The notes: generated by a model not told the origin, from the sequence alone. Counted from the first letter of the stretch, positions 399-16,277 are shown. The stretch: 64,000 bases of DNA from Candidatus Krumholzibacteriia bacterium (GCA_029865265.1 JAOUHG010000017.1:1-64000); one strand, 5' to 3'. Made by a program: numbers and translations.

Positions 399-3300
399 TC
401 AGCGCACGCGCACCCGGTACGTGATGACGCCCGCCTGCCCCGGCGCCAGGTAGAACGGCGCGTTCCTGGAGAAGAGCACGCGCAGCGTGTGATCCAGCGG
501 GGTGAACTGGGCCTCGTCCGCGTCACCCGGGTCGAAGGTGAGGAAGACGGGAGCGCCCGCAGGCGGCTGCCAGCGCAGGTCGAGCCCGGCGCCAAAAGCA
601 TCCGGCTCCACGTCCAACCACTGCGAGACCGGGTCGATCAGAACCACGTTGGCCAGGCTGTCCGCGCCGACGTTGGCCAGCCGAACCGCGTACGTGATCA
701 CGTCGCCCGGCAGAGCATCGGTGCGGTCGAGTGACTTCTCGATCGAGAGCTTACCAAAACCCGGCGTCACCAGAATCGCGTCGCCGGCGGTAGCGGTGAG
801 AACGAGCGGCGTCCCCGAAACGGTCTGGGTGACGGTGATTGTGAACGTGGCGGTGGCACCCGGCAACGCTCCCGCGGGCACGAACACGCGCAGGATCAGG
901 TTGAGCACGCCACCGCCCGGGCCGGCGGGATCGAGGTCGCCGTCTGCCGGCACCAGGGGACGATCCGCTCCGTCCACGAGCCCGTTGCCGTTCACATCGA
1001 CGTACCACACACGCGTGAATGCCGAGTCACCCGCGGCAACGATGTCCGCGTGGCCCGCGGTGCGCGCATCCACACGGTGCGCGAAGTCCACCGCCCCGCC
1101 CGCCGGACCGCTGATCGTGCCGCCGTTGGTAATGGTGATGACCCCGACGTCCGCAAAGTTCACCGTGATGCTGTCGCCGGACGCCACCACCCCGGTCGAC
1201 ACGATGTCGGGCGTTAGCGACGCGAAACCGGAGGGGTTCTGTTCGGCAACAACAAGGCTGTCGGAGTGCACGAGCATCCTGTAGGTGCCGTCGCCGAGCG
1301 TTACCACGGCCGTGCCGCTGCGATTCTCCCGCACCAGCACGCCGCCGAGCCCCACGTCGCCGGCACCGAATACGCCATCGTGGTTGCGGTCGTCAAAGAC
1401 GGTTCCGCGCACCAGTGCGCGCGTCTCCGTGGTGAGCGCCGCGCTCTCGGCCAGGTTGGGCGGCCGGCTGGAAACGGCGTCGATGATGGCCACGTGGGCG
1501 CCGTTCGCGGAGACCGGTACGTCCACCCTGACGATGTAGTTGATGGACTGGCCCGGGTTGAGCAGGCGGCTCCAGAACGGCGCCGTGTGCGTCACCAGCG
1601 AATCGCCGACGGTAATGCTGCTGGCCGCCCAGCCCGCCGGAGGGGTCCACTGCACGCGGAATGAGTCCGGGAACGAACCGGCGTTGCGCAGGGCCAGCGC
1701 CGCCGTGAATACCGAGCCCGGCGCCGCACCGCGTATCGAACGCCCGCCCAGCCCGGTTCCGGCGGCGCCGAACACACCAAAGCCGTTGCCGTCGATGGCG
1801 TAATCGGGGCGCGGGGGGCCCACGACGCTTATGCGCGCGGCCAGACTCTCGAACGAGCCCGGACTGCTCTGCGAGGTGATGTCGAGGATGTACTGGAATG
1901 AGGCGATGCTCTCGCCCGCCGGAACCGTCACGCTGAACGTGTAGAGCCGCACCGCGCCGGCGGGAATGCTCCCGGTAACGAACGGCGAGGGTGATCCGTT
2001 GAAACGCGCGGTCCACGCGGGAATGGCGTTCCATTGCACGCGATACGAGTCCGCGCTGGGCCCGTGGTTCTGCAGCTCCACGGTGTAATTGAGTGTCGCG
2101 GGCGCCGGCGTGATCTGGAGTGAACTTCCGCCCGCGCCGCTGCCGATGGCGCCGAACACGTTGTGCCCGTTGCCGTCGATCAGGCCGTCGACGATCGCGG
2201 GCGGTACTACCACCAGGCGCCCGGTCACACTGTCCAGCAGGAACTGCTTGCTGTTCTTGCGGGCGTTCACGATGACATCGAAGGTGCCGCCCATCGAACC
2301 GGCGGGCACGATTACGCGGAGCGGGTATGTGCCCGCCGGAATGTTGGTCAGCGGCAGGTAGCCGCCGTTGAAGGTGACGTCCCAGCCCGCGGGAGCGGTC
2401 CAGGTGACGTCGAATCCGTTGGTGCCCGAGACATTCCGGATTTCAACCTGGTAGATCACGGTCGCGCCGGGGTTGACCGTCCGCACCGACGTGCCGCCCA
2501 GCCCGGTGTTGATGGGACCGTAGATGGCGGCGCCCTGGCCGTCGATCAGCACGTCCATCTCGTTGGCGCTCGCCACGCTGACCGAGGCCGACACGCTCTC
2601 CGTGACCACGGACGCCACCCGGGACGCGGCGTTCAGGATCGACTGGTAGGTTCCGAACGCGGCGGCCGCGGGAATCTGGATGCGCAAGGTGTAGAACGCC
2701 TGCGCGCCGCCGGCGATGGTCGGGGTAACCGTGGGCAACGCACGGTTGACGCCGTTGATGGTGATGGTCGCCGTCCACCCGGCGGCGGGAGGCGTCCACG
2801 AGAGCGAGAAGGAATCCGCGAGCGCACTCTCGTTCTGCACGGTGATGGGAAATGTCACCGTGGCGCCGCGCTCGCCGGCGTTCGAACTGCCGCCGCCGGC
2901 ACCGGTGCCGCTGGCGCCGTACACGTCGTTGCCGTTGGCGGAGATGATCATGTCGACGCGCGGTTCCAGCAGGCGAAGGATGCCGTGCACGGAGTCGAGC
3001 TTGTTGGCGTCCACCGTGGAGGCCGCGGTGAGGTAGAGGTCGTAGTCGTCCCCGCGGTTGGGCGACGGCACCTGCATCTGCAGCGTCATGGCCGCGCTGC
3101 CGCCCGCCGGGATACTGAGGGTCGTAAACGAGCCCGTGTACGTGGTGCCGTTGTAGACCACCGACGCGGCCAGACCCGCATCGCTGGTAAACGACACCGT
3201 GTACGCGCCCGCCGCGGTGCCGGTGTTCTTGAGCTGCAGTGCGAACGTGGCGGGAACGCCCCACGCGGATGTCTTCAAACCAAAGCCGCCCGCACCGCCG

Positions 3301-14924: not shown

Positions 14925-16277
14925 ATGGCCGACCGCGTTCTGATCATCGACGACGACGAAAGCATCCGCAAGGTGCTCGGCTTCATGCTGGAAGAGGCCG
15001 GCTACCAGGTGGACAAGGCGGCGTCGGCCGACGAAGGCGCGCGCGCCATCGCGCAGCGGCGTCCCGACCTCGTGCTCAGCGACATCAAGATGCCGCGCAA
15101 GGACGGCATGGAACTGCTCGGCGAGATCAAGGCCGCCGACCCTTCCCTGCCCGTGGTCATTCTGACCGCGTTCGGCTCGGTGGAGAACGCGGTGGACGCC
15201 ATGAAGCGCGGCGCCGCGGACTACCTGACCAAACCGATCTCCCGCGACGACCTGCTGCACACGGTGGAAAAGACACTCAAGCTCCACCGCCTGGAAGCGG
15301 AGAACGCGGAGTTGCGCAGCACCATCCAGGAGCGCTTTCGGTTCGAAAGCATCGTGGGACTCTCGCCGGCCATCACCGACCTGTTCGGCGTGCTCCGCAA
15401 GGTCGCACCCACCGACGCGACCGTACTGATTACGGGCGAGAGCGGGACCGGCAAGGAATTGATCGCCAAGGCCGTCCATTTCAACAGCCCGCGGCGCGGC
15501 GCGCGCCTCGTGGTGCTGAACTGCGCCGCCATTCCCCGCGATCTGCTGGAGAGCGAGTTGTTCGGCCACGTGCGCGGCGCCTTCACCGGCGCCATTCGCA
15601 ACAAGCCGGGCAAGTTCGAGCTGGCGCACGGCGGCACCATCTTCCTGGATGAAATCGGCGCCATGCCCGTCGAACTGCAATCGAAACTCCTGCGTGTTCT
15701 GCAGGAGCGCGAACTGGAGCGCGTGGGCGACGAACGCACCATCGAGGTGGACGTGCGCGTCATCGCCGCCACCAACCGGCCGCTGGCCGCGCGCGTGGCC
15801 GCGGGCGAGTTTCGCGAGGATCTCTACTACCGGCTCAACGTGGTCCCGGTGCGTGTTCCGCCCCTGCGCGAACGCGCCGGCGACATCCCGCTGCTGGTGG
15901 ATCATTTTCTGCGCCGCTTCATGCCGGGCGCGGGCGTCTCCCTCACCGCGGAGGCAATGGGCCTGCTGGAGCACTACCCCTGGCCGGGAAACGTGCGCGA
16001 GCTGGAGAACTTCTGCGAGCGCATCGTCCTCATGCGCAGTGGCAACACCATCGACGCCGCCACGGTGGCCGGGCGGCTGGCGGAACTGGCGCGCGAGGCG
16101 CCCGCCACCGGCGCACCGACGCTGCACGAAATCGAGCGCAATGCCGTCGTCGAGGCGCTGCGCGCCTCCGGCTGGAACCGTTCGCGCGCCGCGCGCCGCC
16201 TCGGTGTCCCCCGGCACGTCCTGCTCTACCGCATGAAGAAGTTCGCCATCCTGGAGGACAACGAGACCCCCGGCTGA
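14925..16277 (+). CDS. σ54-dependent response regulator, NtrC/PilR family (REC + AAA+ σ54-activator + Fis-type HTH)
   Basis: REC start MADRVLIIDDDESIRKVL with phospho-acceptor D in LVLSDIKMP. Walker A GESGTGKE. σ54-contact GAFTGA motif (HVRGAFTGA). C-terminal HTH ...RSRAARRLGVPRHVLLYRMKKF. Confidence 0.9.
   Translation: MADRVLIIDDDESIRKVLGFMLEEAGYQVDKAASADEGARAIAQRRPDLVLSDIKMPRKDGMELLGEIKAADPSLPVVILTAFGSVENAVDAMKRGAADYLTKPISRDDLLHTVEKTLKLHRLEAENAELRSTIQERFRFESIVGLSPAITDLFGVLRKVAPTDATVLITGESGTGKELIAKAVHFNSPRRGARLVVLNCAAIPRDLLESELFGHVRGAFTGAIRNKPGKFELAHGGTIFLDEIGAMPVELQSKLLRVLQERELERVGDERTIEVDVRVIAATNRPLAARVAAGEFREDLYYRLNVVPVRVPPLRERAGDIPLLVDHFLRRFMPGAGVSLTAEAMGLLEHYPWPGNVRELENFCERIVLMRSGNTIDAATVAGRLAELAREAPATGAPTLHEIERNAVVEALRASGWNRSRAARRLGVPRHVLLYRMKKFAILEDNETPG

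What the first reader, a model, noticed from the sequence alone, without database searches (positions are those of the whole stretch)
399..16277. σ54 two-component system divergently paired with a four-gene operon of giant DUF11/CARDB-like secreted proteins: candidate undescribed envelope fibre or surface-layer system
Four co-directional, tightly coupled genes with stop/start overlaps encode a 161-aa single-domain secreted β-sandwich protein and three giants of 898, ~1923 and 1319 aa. All carry signal peptides, DUF11/CARDB-like repeats with glycine-rich DGNG...GxGxGG linkers, and related C-terminal blocks. Two of them share a conserved mature N-terminus, AQTTPAGTQIRNRASATY versus AQVTPAGTNVVNTATADY. 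The 1923-aa member embeds an OmpA peptidoglycan-binding domain in the middle of the protein and ends in a ~780-aa aromatic-rich region. The first gene faces a membrane histidine kinase and a GAFTGA-containing NtrC/PilR-type σ54 activator across a 440-bp intergenic region, the way pilS-pilR faces pilin genes. The small-subunit-plus-large-adhesins layout with a peptidoglycan anchor suggests a regulated, envelope-anchored fibre or sheath. There is no sortase and no chaperone-usher or T9SS component in the window, so assembly would be novel.
Basis: partly seen in the sequence, partly recalled or inferred. Interest (0 to 1): 0.85.

Follow-up and report, generated by a model that had tools for sequence, protein, structure and literature searches.

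The report
Self-locking surface fibre with own pore
A sigma-54-controlled four-gene operon in an uncultured Krumholzibacteria-like bacterium appears to build a cell-surface fibre whose subunits snap together like natural SpyTag/SpyCatcher pairs, leave through a giant outer-membrane barrel fused to the wall-anchored base subunit, and belong to a large family that no database names.

Summary
In detail: four co-directional secreted DUF11 (now "CLIPPER") proteins (161, 898, 1922 and 1319 aa) face a histidine kinase and a GAFTGA sigma-54 activator.

- A, B and D each end in a CLIPPER domain that keeps the first-strand Lys and the catalytic Asp but stops before the last two strands.
- Mature B and C begin with exactly those two strands, including the isopeptide Asn.
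- Against HMMs of intact domains, catcher plus true tag aligns end to end and gains 11-28 bits. Reversed or shuffled tags gain about 0-6.
- AlphaFold models B at pLDDT 87, except this highly conserved N-terminal hairpin (about 52).
- The last ~790 aa of C are predicted as a barrel of at least 32 strands with no family assignment. It has 1,983 representative homologues, and the same tag/catcher gene set recurs down to 22% identity.
- A TGGAAC-N5-CTTGCC -24/-12 element is conserved in 18 of 20 loci, and a stable hairpin follows gene B in 24 of 24.

Best reading: a donor-strand-complemented, probably isopeptide-locked fibre, with D as tip, B as shaft and C as anchor and pore. The role of A is unresolved. 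No docking or cross-link has been shown. Interest is high.

The parts
12939..13424 (-). Gene A, 161 aa. Signal peptide plus a single truncated CLIPPER/DUF11 'catcher' domain with no donor strand. Candidate distal cap or tag-binding chaperone-like protein.
   Evidence: Catcher alignment. Matches the intact-domain HMM only at positions 12-87 of 133. Its Lys/Asp are not conserved across loci.
12741..12851 (-). B 'tag': mature N-terminus, residues 26-62 (QTTPAGTQIRNRASATYEDLIGNTYTSLSNEVITVVL). An orphan two-strand hairpin carrying the invariant Asn36.
   Evidence: N36 invariant in 63 sequences. AF2 pLDDT about 51-54 against 84-95 elsewhere. Conservation ranks 20th of 836 windows. Completes the intact-domain HMM.
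10230..12926 (-). Gene B, 898 aa. A rod of tandem Ig-like domains with a tag at the N-terminus and a catcher at the C-terminus. Proposed polymerising shaft subunit.
   Evidence: 390 homologues, the 120 best listed mostly 897-901 aa; mean pLDDT 86.7. Foldseek finds tandem Ig rods.
10233..10616 (-). B 'catcher', residues 771-898. A seven-strand truncated CLIPPER domain with invariant Lys779 (first strand) and Asp814, and an Asp-box insertion (FSDDNGATW).
10124..10229 (-). B-C intergenic stem-loops. Candidate attenuator or mRNA stabiliser that would set A,B above C,D.
   Evidence: dG -56.2 kcal/mol, z -5.6; terminator-like site at 10220-10202; a comparable hairpin after gene B in 24 of 24 related loci.
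9860..9973 (-). C 'tag': mature N-terminus, residues 51-88 (QVTPAGTNVVNTATADYTNASANDFSLSNSVNTRVL).
   Evidence: Pfam DUF11 coverage of A extends from 13-65 to 13-110 of 114 when this tag is appended..
4355..10123 (-). Gene C, 1922 aa. Tag, then Ig-like/CLIPPER stalk, SdrD_B-like region, OmpA peptidoglycan-binding domain, three Ig-like domains and a giant C-terminal barrel. Proposed anchor/terminator and export pore.
7880..8176 (-). OmpA-like peptidoglycan-binding domain of C, residues 650-748.
   Evidence: 60.5 bits. PDB OmpA/MotB/TssL C-terminal domains at about E 1e-17 to 1e-18.
4358..6721 (-). C-terminal outer-membrane beta-barrel of C, residues about 1135-1922. At least 32 long antiparallel strands, with a small inserted beta domain.
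399..4358 (-). Gene D, about 1319 aa. Unassigned N-terminal domain (GELVVNGGFETG...), repeats each starting with a DGNG...GxGxGG motif, and a C-terminal catcher but no tag. Proposed tip protein.
   Evidence: Catcher Lys and Asp are present in every complete D orthologue examined.
402..755 (-). D 'catcher', residues about 1202-1319 (LSIEK ... VVLIDPVS ... ITYRVRVR-end).
13559..13574 (-). Candidate sigma-54 -24/-12 promoter TGGAATGGTCCTTGCC, its 3' end 135 nt upstream of the A start codon.
   Evidence: unique in the window. TGGAAC-N5-CTTGCC at -97 to -264 in 18 of 20 related loci.
13865..14920 (+). Histidine kinase, 351 aa. Three to four membrane helices, no periplasmic domain, HisKA + HATPase_c.
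   Evidence: A sigma-70-like promoter at 13829-13858 is conserved in relatives.
14925..16277 (+). NtrC-family sigma-54 activator (receiver + AAA+ with GAFTGA + HTH_8).
   Evidence: Adjacent in L001-3, 7, 8, 10 and 19-22.

Best explanation
The operon encodes a self-contained surface-fibre system built on a split CLIPPER (DUF11, CnaA-like) domain.

**What the sequence shows.**
- A, B and D end in an acceptor ('catcher'). This is a CLIPPER domain that keeps strand 1 with its Lys and the Asp of the xxDxxP motif, but lacks the last two strands.
- Mature B and C start with a donor ('tag'). This is precisely those two strands, with the Asn that forms the Lys-Asn isopeptide in intact CnaA-type domains.

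**Inferred mechanism.**
1. All four proteins are exported by Sec.
2. The tag of one subunit completes the catcher of another in trans (donor-strand complementation).
3. For B-B and B-D junctions, the contact is probably locked by a spontaneous Lys-Asn isopeptide bond.

**Proposed parts list.**
- D (catcher only, distinct N-terminal domain) is the distal tip.
- B (tag plus catcher) polymerises head to tail as the shaft.
- C (tag only) terminates the chain and anchors it. Its OmpA domain would hold it to peptidoglycan, and its C-terminal barrel of at least 32 strands would sit in the outer membrane and probably serve as the export pore.
- A (catcher only, catalytic residues often lost) is either a non-load-bearing cap or a chaperone-like protector of free tags.

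**Expression.** The operon is driven from a sigma-54 promoter. In this clade the activator is most likely the divergently encoded kinase/NtrC-type pair. A stable hairpin after gene B would keep A and B more abundant than C and D.
For: 1. **Anatomy.** Tags occur only in B and C, and catchers only in A, B and D, among all ORFs of the window.
2. **Catalytic residues.** Lys779, Asp814 and Asn36 of B are invariant in 63 sequences. Lys and Asp are present in every complete D catcher examined. The published rule for CnaA-like domains is Lys on the first strand, Asn on the penultimate strand and a catalytic Asp (PMC12617251). The split domain matches this rule.
3. **HMM test of the split.**
   - HMM built from 30 intact in-cis domains: catchers alone align to positions 1-87 of 133 (45.2, 42.6 and 28.0 bits). 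Catcher plus true tag aligns collinearly to positions 120-124 (64-67, 60-63 and 50-56 bits). Reversed tags gain about 0-5 bits; shuffled tags gain about 0-6 on average (z about 7-10).
   - The junction ...FTVRIQ|QTTPAGTQIRNRAS falls on the consensus loop ...irvrvtvaaaeGanltNtAtv.
   - The result holds with a second HMM of 116 domains mined without requiring the Asn motif: +11 to +20 bits, reaching positions 127-129 of 137.
   - Pfam DUF11 coverage of A grows from 13-65 to 13-110 of 114 when the C tag is appended.
4. **AlphaFold on B.** Mean pLDDT is 86.7, but the tag hairpin scores only about 51-54 although it is in the top 2.4% for conservation. The last domain has 7 strands; the solved CLIPPER domain has 9.
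5. **The barrel.** C residues 1135-1922 are modelled as a very large barrel that matches only generic OM barrels. There are 1,983 representative homologues. Of 81 with an apparently intact N-terminus, 50 carry an Asn tag.
6. **Recurrence.** The same gene set (tag+catcher subunits, a small A-like protein, a tag+barrel protein, sometimes catcher-only giants) recurs in loci with only 22-30% barrel identity.
7. **Regulation.** The -24/-12 element is conserved in 18 of 20 loci. The activator carries GAFTGA. The kinase and activator are adjacent in many loci. A hairpin follows gene B in 24 of 24 loci.
8. **Precedent.** Donor-strand 'exchange and lock' with an Asn/Glu/Lys triad has been shown by mutagenesis for BsaA of C. 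perfringens.
Against: - No structural docking or cross-link was shown.
- The tag of C carries Ser instead of Asn in a large subclade, so the anchor junction cannot always be covalent.
- The Lys or Asp of A is lost in many lineages, and its role is unresolved.
- Pfam coverage did not extend for the B and D chimeras. hhalign against B's own internal domains was uninformative.
- The barrel model has pTM 0.44, and its pore function is inferred only from size and from the absence of other machinery.
- Topology is awkward. The OmpA domain lies between the stalk and the barrel, so the stalk must thread the barrel or stay in the periplasm.
- The two-component system is not adjacent in several orthologous loci.
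- One group of barrel homologues (L037-L057) lacks the motifs.
Confidence: 0.58

Rival explanations
1. The four proteins are independent fibrillar adhesins or surface proteins that do not join covalently or by strand exchange. The shared C-terminal domain of A, B and D is an export or sorting signal, comparable to a T9SS C-terminal domain, recognised by the C barrel or by machinery encoded elsewhere. The conserved N-terminus of B and C folds in cis or is a recognition peptide.
For: - A conserved C-terminal beta-sandwich on all cargo next to a giant barrel resembles the logic of T9SS cargo and SprA. T9SS-type tails occur in a related genome (Por_Secre_tail in L004).
- CLIPPER-stalk adhesins with an OmpA anchor are already described.
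- AF2 models the catchers confidently without any tag.
Against: - No Por_Secre_tail or other sorting-domain hit in A, B or D.
- The catchers stop exactly where intact domains continue, and the tags supply exactly the missing strands with the Asn.
- The Lys/Asp/Asn triad is invariant in B. An export signal would not need this.
- The tag hairpin is not confidently packed in cis.
Confidence: 0.2
2. C is mainly an outer-membrane-to-peptidoglycan tether, analogous to SlpA or OmpM. A, B and D form a two-dimensional surface layer or sheath docked on its N-terminal stalk, rather than a linear fibre. The barrel is structural and not an export pore.
For: - A peptidoglycan-binding domain plus a very large barrel in one chain recalls SLH-plus-barrel tethers.
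- The Foldseek hits for B include an S-layer protein.
- The length of B is almost fixed at 897-901 aa, which would suit a lattice element.
Against: - The set of one donor and one acceptor per B, acceptor-only A and D, and donor-only C predicts linear chains with defined ends.
- No lattice-forming or SLH features were found.
- The hairpin after the B gene fits a pilus-type stoichiometry.
Confidence: 0.14
3. The tag of B inserts into B's own catcher, closing the protein intramolecularly, so no polymer forms.
For: Tag and catcher lie in one chain. AF2 gives a hairpin conformation for the tag.
Against: - C has a tag without any catcher, and A and D have catchers without tags. This only makes sense in trans.
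- The tag is modelled at low confidence, so it is not confidently docked.
- B is a rod of about 7 Ig-like domains.
Confidence: 0.04

Closest known systems
Chaperone-usher pili (type 1 / P pili: FimH/PapG tip, FimA/PapA rod, PapH/FimI terminator, FimD/PapC usher)
   Same: The same parts logic:
- subunits with an N-terminal donor segment and an incomplete Ig-like fold;
- an acceptor-only tip protein with an extra N-terminal domain (D);
- a donor-only terminator at the base (C);
- an outer-membrane barrel large enough for folded domains, with Ig-like periplasmic domains and an inserted small domain;
- a stem-loop after the major-subunit gene.
   Different: - The donor is a two-strand hairpin of a CnaA/CLIPPER fold rather than one strand of a pilin fold.
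- A Lys/Asp/Asn triad suggests covalent locking.
- Terminator, peptidoglycan anchor and barrel are fused in one 1922-aa protein.
- Subunits are multi-domain rods of up to about 900-1300 aa.
BsaA (TasA family) of Clostridium perfringens: donor-strand 'exchange and lock' with an intermolecular isopeptide bond
   Same: An N-terminal donor strand carries an Asn. It inserts into the next subunit, which supplies the Lys and an acidic catalyst. Polymerisation needs no sortase.
   Different: - Different fold family (TasA/camelysin-like) and triad (Asn/Glu/Lys).
- A Gram-positive organism with no outer membrane, barrel or peptidoglycan-binding anchor subunit.
- A single-domain subunit.
CLIPPER (DUF11)-stalk fibrillar adhesins, e.g. 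Acinetobacter silvestris B9T28_05395 with an OmpA-like anchor (PDB 9IFR)
   Same: The same domain family, all four proteins scoring above the Pfam threshold. The same Lys/Asp/Asn chemistry on the first and penultimate strands. An OmpA-type anchoring domain in a giant surface protein.
   Different: There the domain is intact and the bond is intramolecular within a single polypeptide. Here the isopeptide-competent domain is split between the C-terminus of one protein and the N-terminus of another. In addition, a giant barrel is attached.
Sortase-assembled Gram-positive pili and the engineered SpyTag/SpyCatcher pair
   Same: Covalent Lys-linked fibres with tip, shaft and base subunits. SpyTag/SpyCatcher is an artificially split isopeptide domain that religates spontaneously.
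   Different: - No sortase and no LPXTG motif.
- The split would be natural, of CnaA rather than CnaB type.
- It operates in a diderm envelope.
Archaeal threads (Saci_0406) and tafi
   Same: Chaperone-free donor-strand complementation. In threads there are additional intermolecular isopeptide bonds. Tafi have a tip/adapter/core/anchor order.
   Different: Archaeal, with unrelated folds, no outer membrane pore, and a different bond chemistry (N-terminal amine to Asn).

Membership tests
CLIPPER / DUF11 (PF01345) domain proteins | Match to PF01345 above the gathering score | tested here: met
   A 26.5, B 36.9, C 42.8 and D 47.9 bits against a cutoff of 24.6. TIGR01451 is also met.
CLIPPER / DUF11 (PF01345) domain proteins | Intact 7-9-strand domain with the Lys (strand 1), Asp and Asn (penultimate strand) in one chain, giving an intramolecular isopeptide | tested here: not met
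   The terminal domains of A, B and D cover only about HMM positions 1-87 of 133 (Pfam 2-59 or 13-65 of 114) and lack the Asn strand. The Asn strand sits at the N-terminus of B and C.
Chaperone-usher pili | PapD-like periplasmic chaperone (PF00345/PF02753) and usher (PF00577) | tested here: not met
   [not shown]
Chaperone-usher pili | Subunits with an N-terminal donor extension completing an incomplete Ig-like fold of the neighbour | tested here: inconclusive
   An analogous split is shown at sequence level in a different fold, and the tag has low pLDDT.
Sortase-dependent pili | LPXTG-type sorting signal and a sortase gene | tested here: not met
   No LPxTG motif in A-D. No sortase among the window proteins scanned.
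T9SS cargo | C-terminal Por_Secre_tail / TIGR04183 domain | tested here: not met
   No hit in A, B or D, although such tails exist in a related genome.
Type V secretion (autotransporters, intimin/invasin) | 12-16-strand autotransporter or inverse-autotransporter barrel family hit | tested here: not met
   No Pfam barrel family on C 1135-1922. At least 32 strands predicted. Big_1/Invasin_D3 only at E about 0.03.
OmpA-family peptidoglycan-binding proteins | OmpA C-terminal-like domain (PF00691) above threshold | tested here: met
   60.5 bits against 27.2. PDB OmpA/MotB/TssL domains at E down to 6.5e-18. Peptidoglycan binding itself was not tested.
Sigma-54-dependent two-component regulation (NtrC family) | Receiver + AAA+ sigma-54 interaction domain with GAFTGA + HTH, and a -24/-12 promoter at the target | tested here: met
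   (GAFTGA at ORF residue 263). (TGG-N8-TTGC element conserved in 18 of 20 loci). Actual dependence was not tested.
BsaA/TasA 'exchange-and-lock' fibres | TasA/camelysin-family fold with an Asn/Glu/Lys triad | tested here: not met
   No TasA-family hits. The triad here is Lys/Asp/Asn in a CLIPPER fold. The mechanism is analogous, but this is not family membership.

The most novel reading that the evidence does not exclude
This is a previously unrecognised class of pili in diderm bacteria, seen at least in Krumholzibacteria/Latescibacteria, Gemmatimonadota and Mariprofundaceae. Its subunits are natural Tag/Catcher pairs, formed by a CnaA/CLIPPER domain split between two polypeptides, and they ligate autocatalytically. 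The covalent chain is extruded through a dedicated barrel of at least 32 strands. That barrel is fused to the terminator subunit, which is itself pinned to peptidoglycan. If so, this is a new outer-membrane assembly and secretion machine that needs no chaperone, sortase or ATP.
Probability: 0.4. Interest if true: 0.92.

Novelty: new variant of a known kind. Interest (0 to 1): 0.8.

Why it matters
- **A new fibre-assembly route in Gram-negative bacteria.** It would combine the donor-strand logic of chaperone-usher pili with the covalent bonds of Gram-positive pili. It would run on a new giant outer-membrane barrel family of about 2,000 clusters at 50% identity, which no database names.
- **A force-bearing chain.** It would explain how very large CLIPPER adhesins are exported and anchored in several poorly known phyla. 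The result would be a continuous, mostly covalent chain from the tip protein to the cell wall.
- **Protein engineering.** It could supply many natural, possibly orthogonal Tag/Catcher pairs.
- **Directly testable.** Simple in vitro ligation assays would test the mechanism. Homologues in Gemmatimonas genomes may allow genetic tests if a cultured strain carries the system.

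Tried and rejected
- **Genome-contig scan with alignment A1.** The OmpA pattern saturated the candidate list. A barrel-only alignment fixed this for the metagenome scan.
- **Docking test by AlphaFold.** No complex could be modelled, and no coordinates are returned for contact checks.
- **MAFFT with A and B homologues.** It aligned B's catcher to A rather than B's N-terminus to the tag. This confirms A/B-catcher homology but was useless for paired modelling.
- **Pfam on B and D chimeras.** No extension of DUF11 coverage, probably because of the Asp-box insertion.
- **PDB sequence searches.** Neither the chimera profile nor an intact domain retrieved the solved CLIPPER entry.
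- **hhalign of chimera, catcher and tag against B's internal domains.** Not significant.
- **No intact in-cis version of the Asp-box-containing catcher** in the sequences held.
- **Rfam** found no known RNA in 1-17000.
- **Literature searches** found no description of this system. A 'DUF11' hit in the tafi paper was DUF1102.
- **Covariation between A's triad and the Asn of the C tag.** Considered as proof of A-C pairing and rejected as proof. There are few independent events, and L022 and distant loci are exceptions.
- **CBM4_9 and CARDB assignments:** not found.

Full report
**1. What is there**

The window is 65-70% G+C. On the minus strand lie four co-directional genes:
- A: 12939-13424, 161 aa.
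- B: 10230-12926, 898 aa.
- C: 4355-10123, 1922 aa from ATG 10123.
- D: 399-4355/4358, about 1319 aa.

Gene spacing:
- A and B are 12 nt apart, with a GGAGGA ribosome-binding site over the A stop codon.
- C and D overlap as TGATG.
- B and C are separated by 106 nt.

Domain hits:
- All four proteins pass the Pfam threshold for DUF11.
- C also carries an OmpA domain (60.5 bits, residues 650-748). PDB OmpA/MotB/TssL domains confirm it at E down to 6.5e-18.
- SdrD_B hits are below threshold.
- No CARDB or CBM4_9 hit was found, and the first 214 aa of D match nothing.

Divergently, on the plus strand:
- A 351-aa histidine kinase (13865-14920). It has three to four membrane helices and no periplasmic domain.
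- An NtrC-type activator (14925-16277) with receiver, sigma-54 AAA+ domain, GAFTGA and HTH_8.

**2. Where it comes from and how conserved it is**

- C has about 40 full-length orthologues at 39-100% identity. Where named, they are 'OmpA family protein' from Candidatus Krumholzibacteria or Latescibacteria MAGs.
- A and B homologues carry the same organism names.
- B has 390 homologues. The 120 best listed are 64-100% identical, and almost all are 897-901 aa long.
- In contigs carrying C orthologues of 65% and 39% identity, the whole block is kept: M1 peptidase, activator, kinase, then A, B, C, D.
- At 34% identity A-B-C-D is kept, but the two-component system is not adjacent.

**3. The barrel**

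An AlphaFold model of C residues 745-1922 was built from 40 sequences (mean pLDDT 74, pTM 0.44). It gives three Ig-like domains, followed from about residue 1135 by at least 32 long antiparallel strands. A small beta domain is inserted early in the series.

- No Pfam or NCBIfam model covers this region.
- Some orthologues end in ...NGYEF or ...NGYRF, which is typical of an OMP beta-signal.
- phmmer of the barrel against 1.84 billion representative proteins gives 1,983 hits at E ≤ 1e-3 and 523 at E ≤ 1e-30. Among the 150 listed these range from fragments to about 4,600 aa; in the full-length ones the barrel is usually at or near the C-terminus.
- Named members come from Gemmatimonas/Gemmatimonadota ('SdrD B-like' or 'DUF11 domain-containing') and Mariprofundaceae ('OmpA family'). 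None has a functional name.

**4. The key finding: a split CLIPPER domain**

Pfam has renamed DUF11 as CLIPPER. It is a CnaA-like fold with an isopeptide bond between a Lys on the first strand and an Asn on the penultimate strand, catalysed by an Asp. In the solved nine-strand domain these are Lys715, Asn806 and Asp748 (PMC12617251).

In this operon:
- A, B and D all end in a domain that has the strand-1 Lys and the xxDxxP Asp:
  - A: IEAWK and VSITDPIP.
  - B: LSLTK and IIIYDAVP.
  - D: LSIEK and VVLIDPVS.
- Each of these stops at ...YRAVVR, ...FTVRIQ or ...YRVRVR.
- Mature B and C begin six residues after the signal-peptide cleavage site:
  - B: ...PAGTQIRNRASATYEDLIGNTYTSLSNEVITVV.
  - C: ...PAGTNVVNTATADYTNASANDFSLSNSVNTRVL.
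- These N-termini have the sequence pattern of the last two CLIPPER strands, including the Asn.

Among all window ORFs of at least 90 aa, the tag pattern occurs only in B and C, and the catcher pattern only in A, B and D.

**5. Quantitative test of the split**

First HMM.

| Query | Alone (bits) | Plus true tag (bits) |
|---|---|---|
| A catcher | 45.2 | 64-67 |
| B catcher | 42.6 | 60-63 |
| D catcher | 28.0 | 50-56 |

- Catchers alone align only to positions 1-87.
- Appending a true tag makes one collinear alignment reaching positions 120-124.
- Reversed tags give about 0-5 bits of gain. Twenty shuffles give about 0-6 bits on average (z about 7-10).
- In the printed alignment the Lys, Asp and Asn fall on the consensus Lys, Asp and Asn columns.
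- The end of the catcher and the start of the mature tag meet without a gap on the loop between two strands...FTVRIQ|QTTPAGTQIRNRAS against ...irvrvtvaaaeGanltNtAtv.

Second HMM. The first mining pattern required the Asn motif, so I repeated the test with 116 domains selected only by the Lys strand and the Asp motif. The true tags still add 11-20 bits and extend the alignment to positions 127-129 of 137. Controls do not.

Pfam gives a weaker result. DUF11 coverage of A grows from 13-65 to 13-110 of 114 when the C tag is appended. The B and D chimeras show no extension.

**6. Structure-prediction evidence**

Full-length B was modelled from 63 sequences at mean pLDDT 86.7, as a rod of Ig-like domains.
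- Foldseek hits are HYDIN-like, PrgB, alpha-2-macroglobulin and S-layer Ig arrays.
- The only poorly modelled part of the mature protein is the tag hairpin (strands 31-43 and 49-61, pLDDT about 51-54).
- Yet this is one of the most conserved stretches: majority fraction 0.87 against 0.78 overall, ranking 20th of 836 windows, with Asn36 invariant.
- The last domain has seven strands, so two more would give the nine of the solved CLIPPER domain.
- Lys779 and Asp814 are invariant.

This is the behaviour expected of a donor segment that binds in trans. It is not proof.

**7. Generality**

A metagenome scan with a barrel-only alignment found 314 relatives, of which 80 loci were fetched.

ORF calling and motif scans show the same kit even at 22-30% barrel identity:
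- one or two subunits of 320-970 aa with tag (Asn) plus catcher (Lys, Asp);
- a small A-like protein of 150-190 aa;
- a barrel protein with an N-terminal Asn tag;
- in some loci, catcher-only giants of about 2,000-2,400 aa.

Of 81 representative barrel proteins with an apparently intact N-terminus, 50 carry an Asn tag and 8 a Ser/Thr variant. Curated libraries give these partners only the generic DUF11-repeat label.

One subgroup (L037-L057) lacks the motifs and has different neighbours.

**8. Who pairs with whom**

- The B tag and the B and D catchers keep the full triad in every locus examined.
- The C tag has Ser instead of Asn in the clades with 29-45% barrel identity.
- A loses its Lys (to Arg) or its Asp (to Gly, Asn or Ile) in many lineages.
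- Evolutionary rates fall into two classes:
  - slow: B tag 67-97% identity, B catcher 56-89% (apart from one fragmented locus);
  - fast: C tag 22-75%, A 36-91%, D catcher 31-81%.

The simplest reading is that B-B and B-D junctions bear load and are covalently locked. Junctions involving A, and in some lineages C, would be non-covalent strand complementation.

Loss of A's triad coincides with loss of the C-tag Asn in two clades. That hints at an A-C pairing, but there are exceptions (L022 and distant loci). The role of A, as cap or as chaperone-like tag protector, stays open.

**9. Regulation**

- **Sigma-54 promoter.** A GG-N10-GC element, TGGAATGGTCCTTGCC, lies at 13559-13574 (minus strand), its 3' end 135 nt upstream of the A start codon, and is unique in the window.
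  - The same element (consensus TGGAAC-N5-CTTGCC) lies 97-264 nt upstream of A in 18 of 20 related loci. These include loci without an adjacent two-component system.
  - The chance expectation for the loose pattern is about 0.07 per 432-nt region (my own estimate).
- **Kinase/activator adjacency.** They are adjacent in the window and in L001-3, 7, 8, 10 and 19-22. They are not adjacent in L004, 16, 17, 24 or 27-33.
- **Upstream palindrome.** In relatives, TTGCACATTGCAA lies about 150-200 nt upstream of the promoter. It is degenerate in the window.
- **Kinase promoter.** The kinase operon has a conserved sigma-70-like promoter ending 7 nt before its ATG.
- **B-C hairpin.** The B-C spacer folds into two strong hairpins (-56.2 kcal/mol, z -5.6).
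  - A comparably stable hairpin of different sequence follows gene B in all 24 loci tested (z -3.2 to -7.0), sometimes with a U tract.
  - This is the arrangement expected if A and B must be made in excess over C and D, as for major-subunit genes in pilus operons (established knowledge for the pap and fim operons).
- **Known RNA families.** Rfam finds none.

**10. Mechanism proposed** (shown and inferred steps are marked)

Shown at sequence or prediction level:
- the split domain with a correctly placed triad;
- the giant barrel and the OmpA domain in C;
- the conserved -24/-12 element and the hairpin;
- the conserved gene kit.

Inferred:
1. After Sec export, D, or alternatively A, provides the first open acceptor.
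2. The B tag inserts and is locked by a Lys-Asn bond.
3. Further B subunits add at the base.
4. The C tag ends the chain.
5. The chain passes through C's own barrel, while the OmpA domain holds the base on peptidoglycan. Folding and irreversible bond formation would act as the ratchet.

This solves the topological oddity of an OmpA domain lying between stalk and barrel, but it is untested.

**11. Comparison with known systems**

- **What it works like.** The parts logic is that of chaperone-usher pili: acceptor-only tip, donor-plus-acceptor rod, donor-only terminator, large barrel. The chemistry is that of CnaA-type isopeptide domains.
- **Closest mechanistic precedent.** The 'exchange and lock' polymerisation of BsaA in C. 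perfringens. Archaeal threads and tafi are further analogues.
- **Family membership.** It is met only for CLIPPER/DUF11, OmpA and NtrC-type regulators. It is not met for ushers and chaperones, sortase pili, T9SS cargo, autotransporters or TasA.
- **Literature.** I found no paper describing a split CLIPPER domain or this barrel family. The library is incomplete, so prior description cannot be excluded.

**12. Verdict**

- The finding is real, and more interesting than an 'array of adhesins'.
- I rate it a new variant of a known kind: donor-strand-complemented, covalently reinforced adhesive fibres.
- There is a substantial chance that it is a distinct new class of diderm pilus with its own outer-membrane machine.
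- The main weakness is that the trans interaction, the covalent bond and the pore function are all inferred.

Noticed in passing
window 10124-10229 (- strand); B-C spacers of L001-L004, L007, L008, L010, L016-L024, L027-L033, L058, L070, L073: Very stable stem-loops directly after gene B (window: dG -56.2 kcal/mol, z -5.6). A hairpin of different sequence but similar strength occurs in all 24 related loci tested, and in L058/70/73 it is followed by a U tract. Likely an intra-operon attenuator or mRNA stabiliser.
   Followed up: partly
window 13829-13858 (+), just upstream of the kinase ATG at 13865: Sigma-70-like promoter TTGAAA-18-TATATT ending 7 nt before the kinase start codon, which raises the possibility of a leaderless mRNA. 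The block TGTATAATTTTCAACA is conserved in L001, L007, L008 and L010.
   Followed up: partly
L001, L007, L008, L010, L016, L017, L024: about 150-200 nt upstream of the -24/-12 element. Window equivalent around 13740-13800.: Conserved palindrome TTGCACATTGCAA (TTGCA-N3-TGCAA), a candidate activator binding site. It is degenerate in the window and in its closest relative L022.
   Followed up: no
window 13865-14200: The kinase has only three to four membrane helices and no periplasmic sensor domain, so it looks like an intramembrane or envelope-state sensor.
   Followed up: no
window 16337-19324 (+) and 26878-30480 (+): A 995-aa M1 peptidase stays next to the activator in L001, L002, L008 and L010. 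A second M1 peptidase with HEAT repeats lies 7.5 kb further on. Whether either processes the fibre proteins is unknown.
   Followed up: no
window 9974-10123 (C residues 1-50): C has an unusually long N-region before the hydrophobic core of its signal peptide. It contains a GLAVFR motif also present in the 65%-identical orthologue L001. This is reminiscent of the extended signal peptides of very large autotransporters.
   Followed up: no
window about 10400-10430 (B residues 833-841) and A residues about 102-110: An Asp-box/BNR-like motif SxDxGxTW (FSDDNGATW in B, FSVDNGKTF in A) is inserted in the catcher domains. It gives weak hits to sialidase Asp-boxes.
   Followed up: partly
window 399-4358, D residues about 211-870: D has repeats that each open with (I/V)DGNGxxVFGAxGxGxGG, a possible calcium-binding or glycine-rich loop. 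A strict pattern finds four copies; two more degenerate ones are visible by eye.
   Followed up: no
L037-L057 (metagenome loci): A subgroup of barrel homologues (29-30% identity) lacks the tag/catcher motifs. It is instead followed by ORFs of about 410 and 600 aa and a 313-320 aa AAA-like protein, so it may be a different system built on the same barrel.
   Followed up: no
L063:2805-4157 and 5250-7796: A sigma-54 activator homologue (361 bits) lies upstream of a barrel-only 848-aa homologue in a distant locus. This hints that the sigma-54 link may recur outside the Krumholzibacteria clade.
   Followed up: no
window 19321-47069: The rest of the window looks like ordinary housekeeping: DegT aminotransferase, iPGM, V/A-type ATPase subunit, GAF-PAS kinase, PMT_2/TPR glycosyltransferase, ornithine/aspartate carbamoyltransferase. 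Three large ORFs have no Pfam hit (32698-34338, 47733-49949, 53471-55726) and may not be genes.
   Followed up: partly
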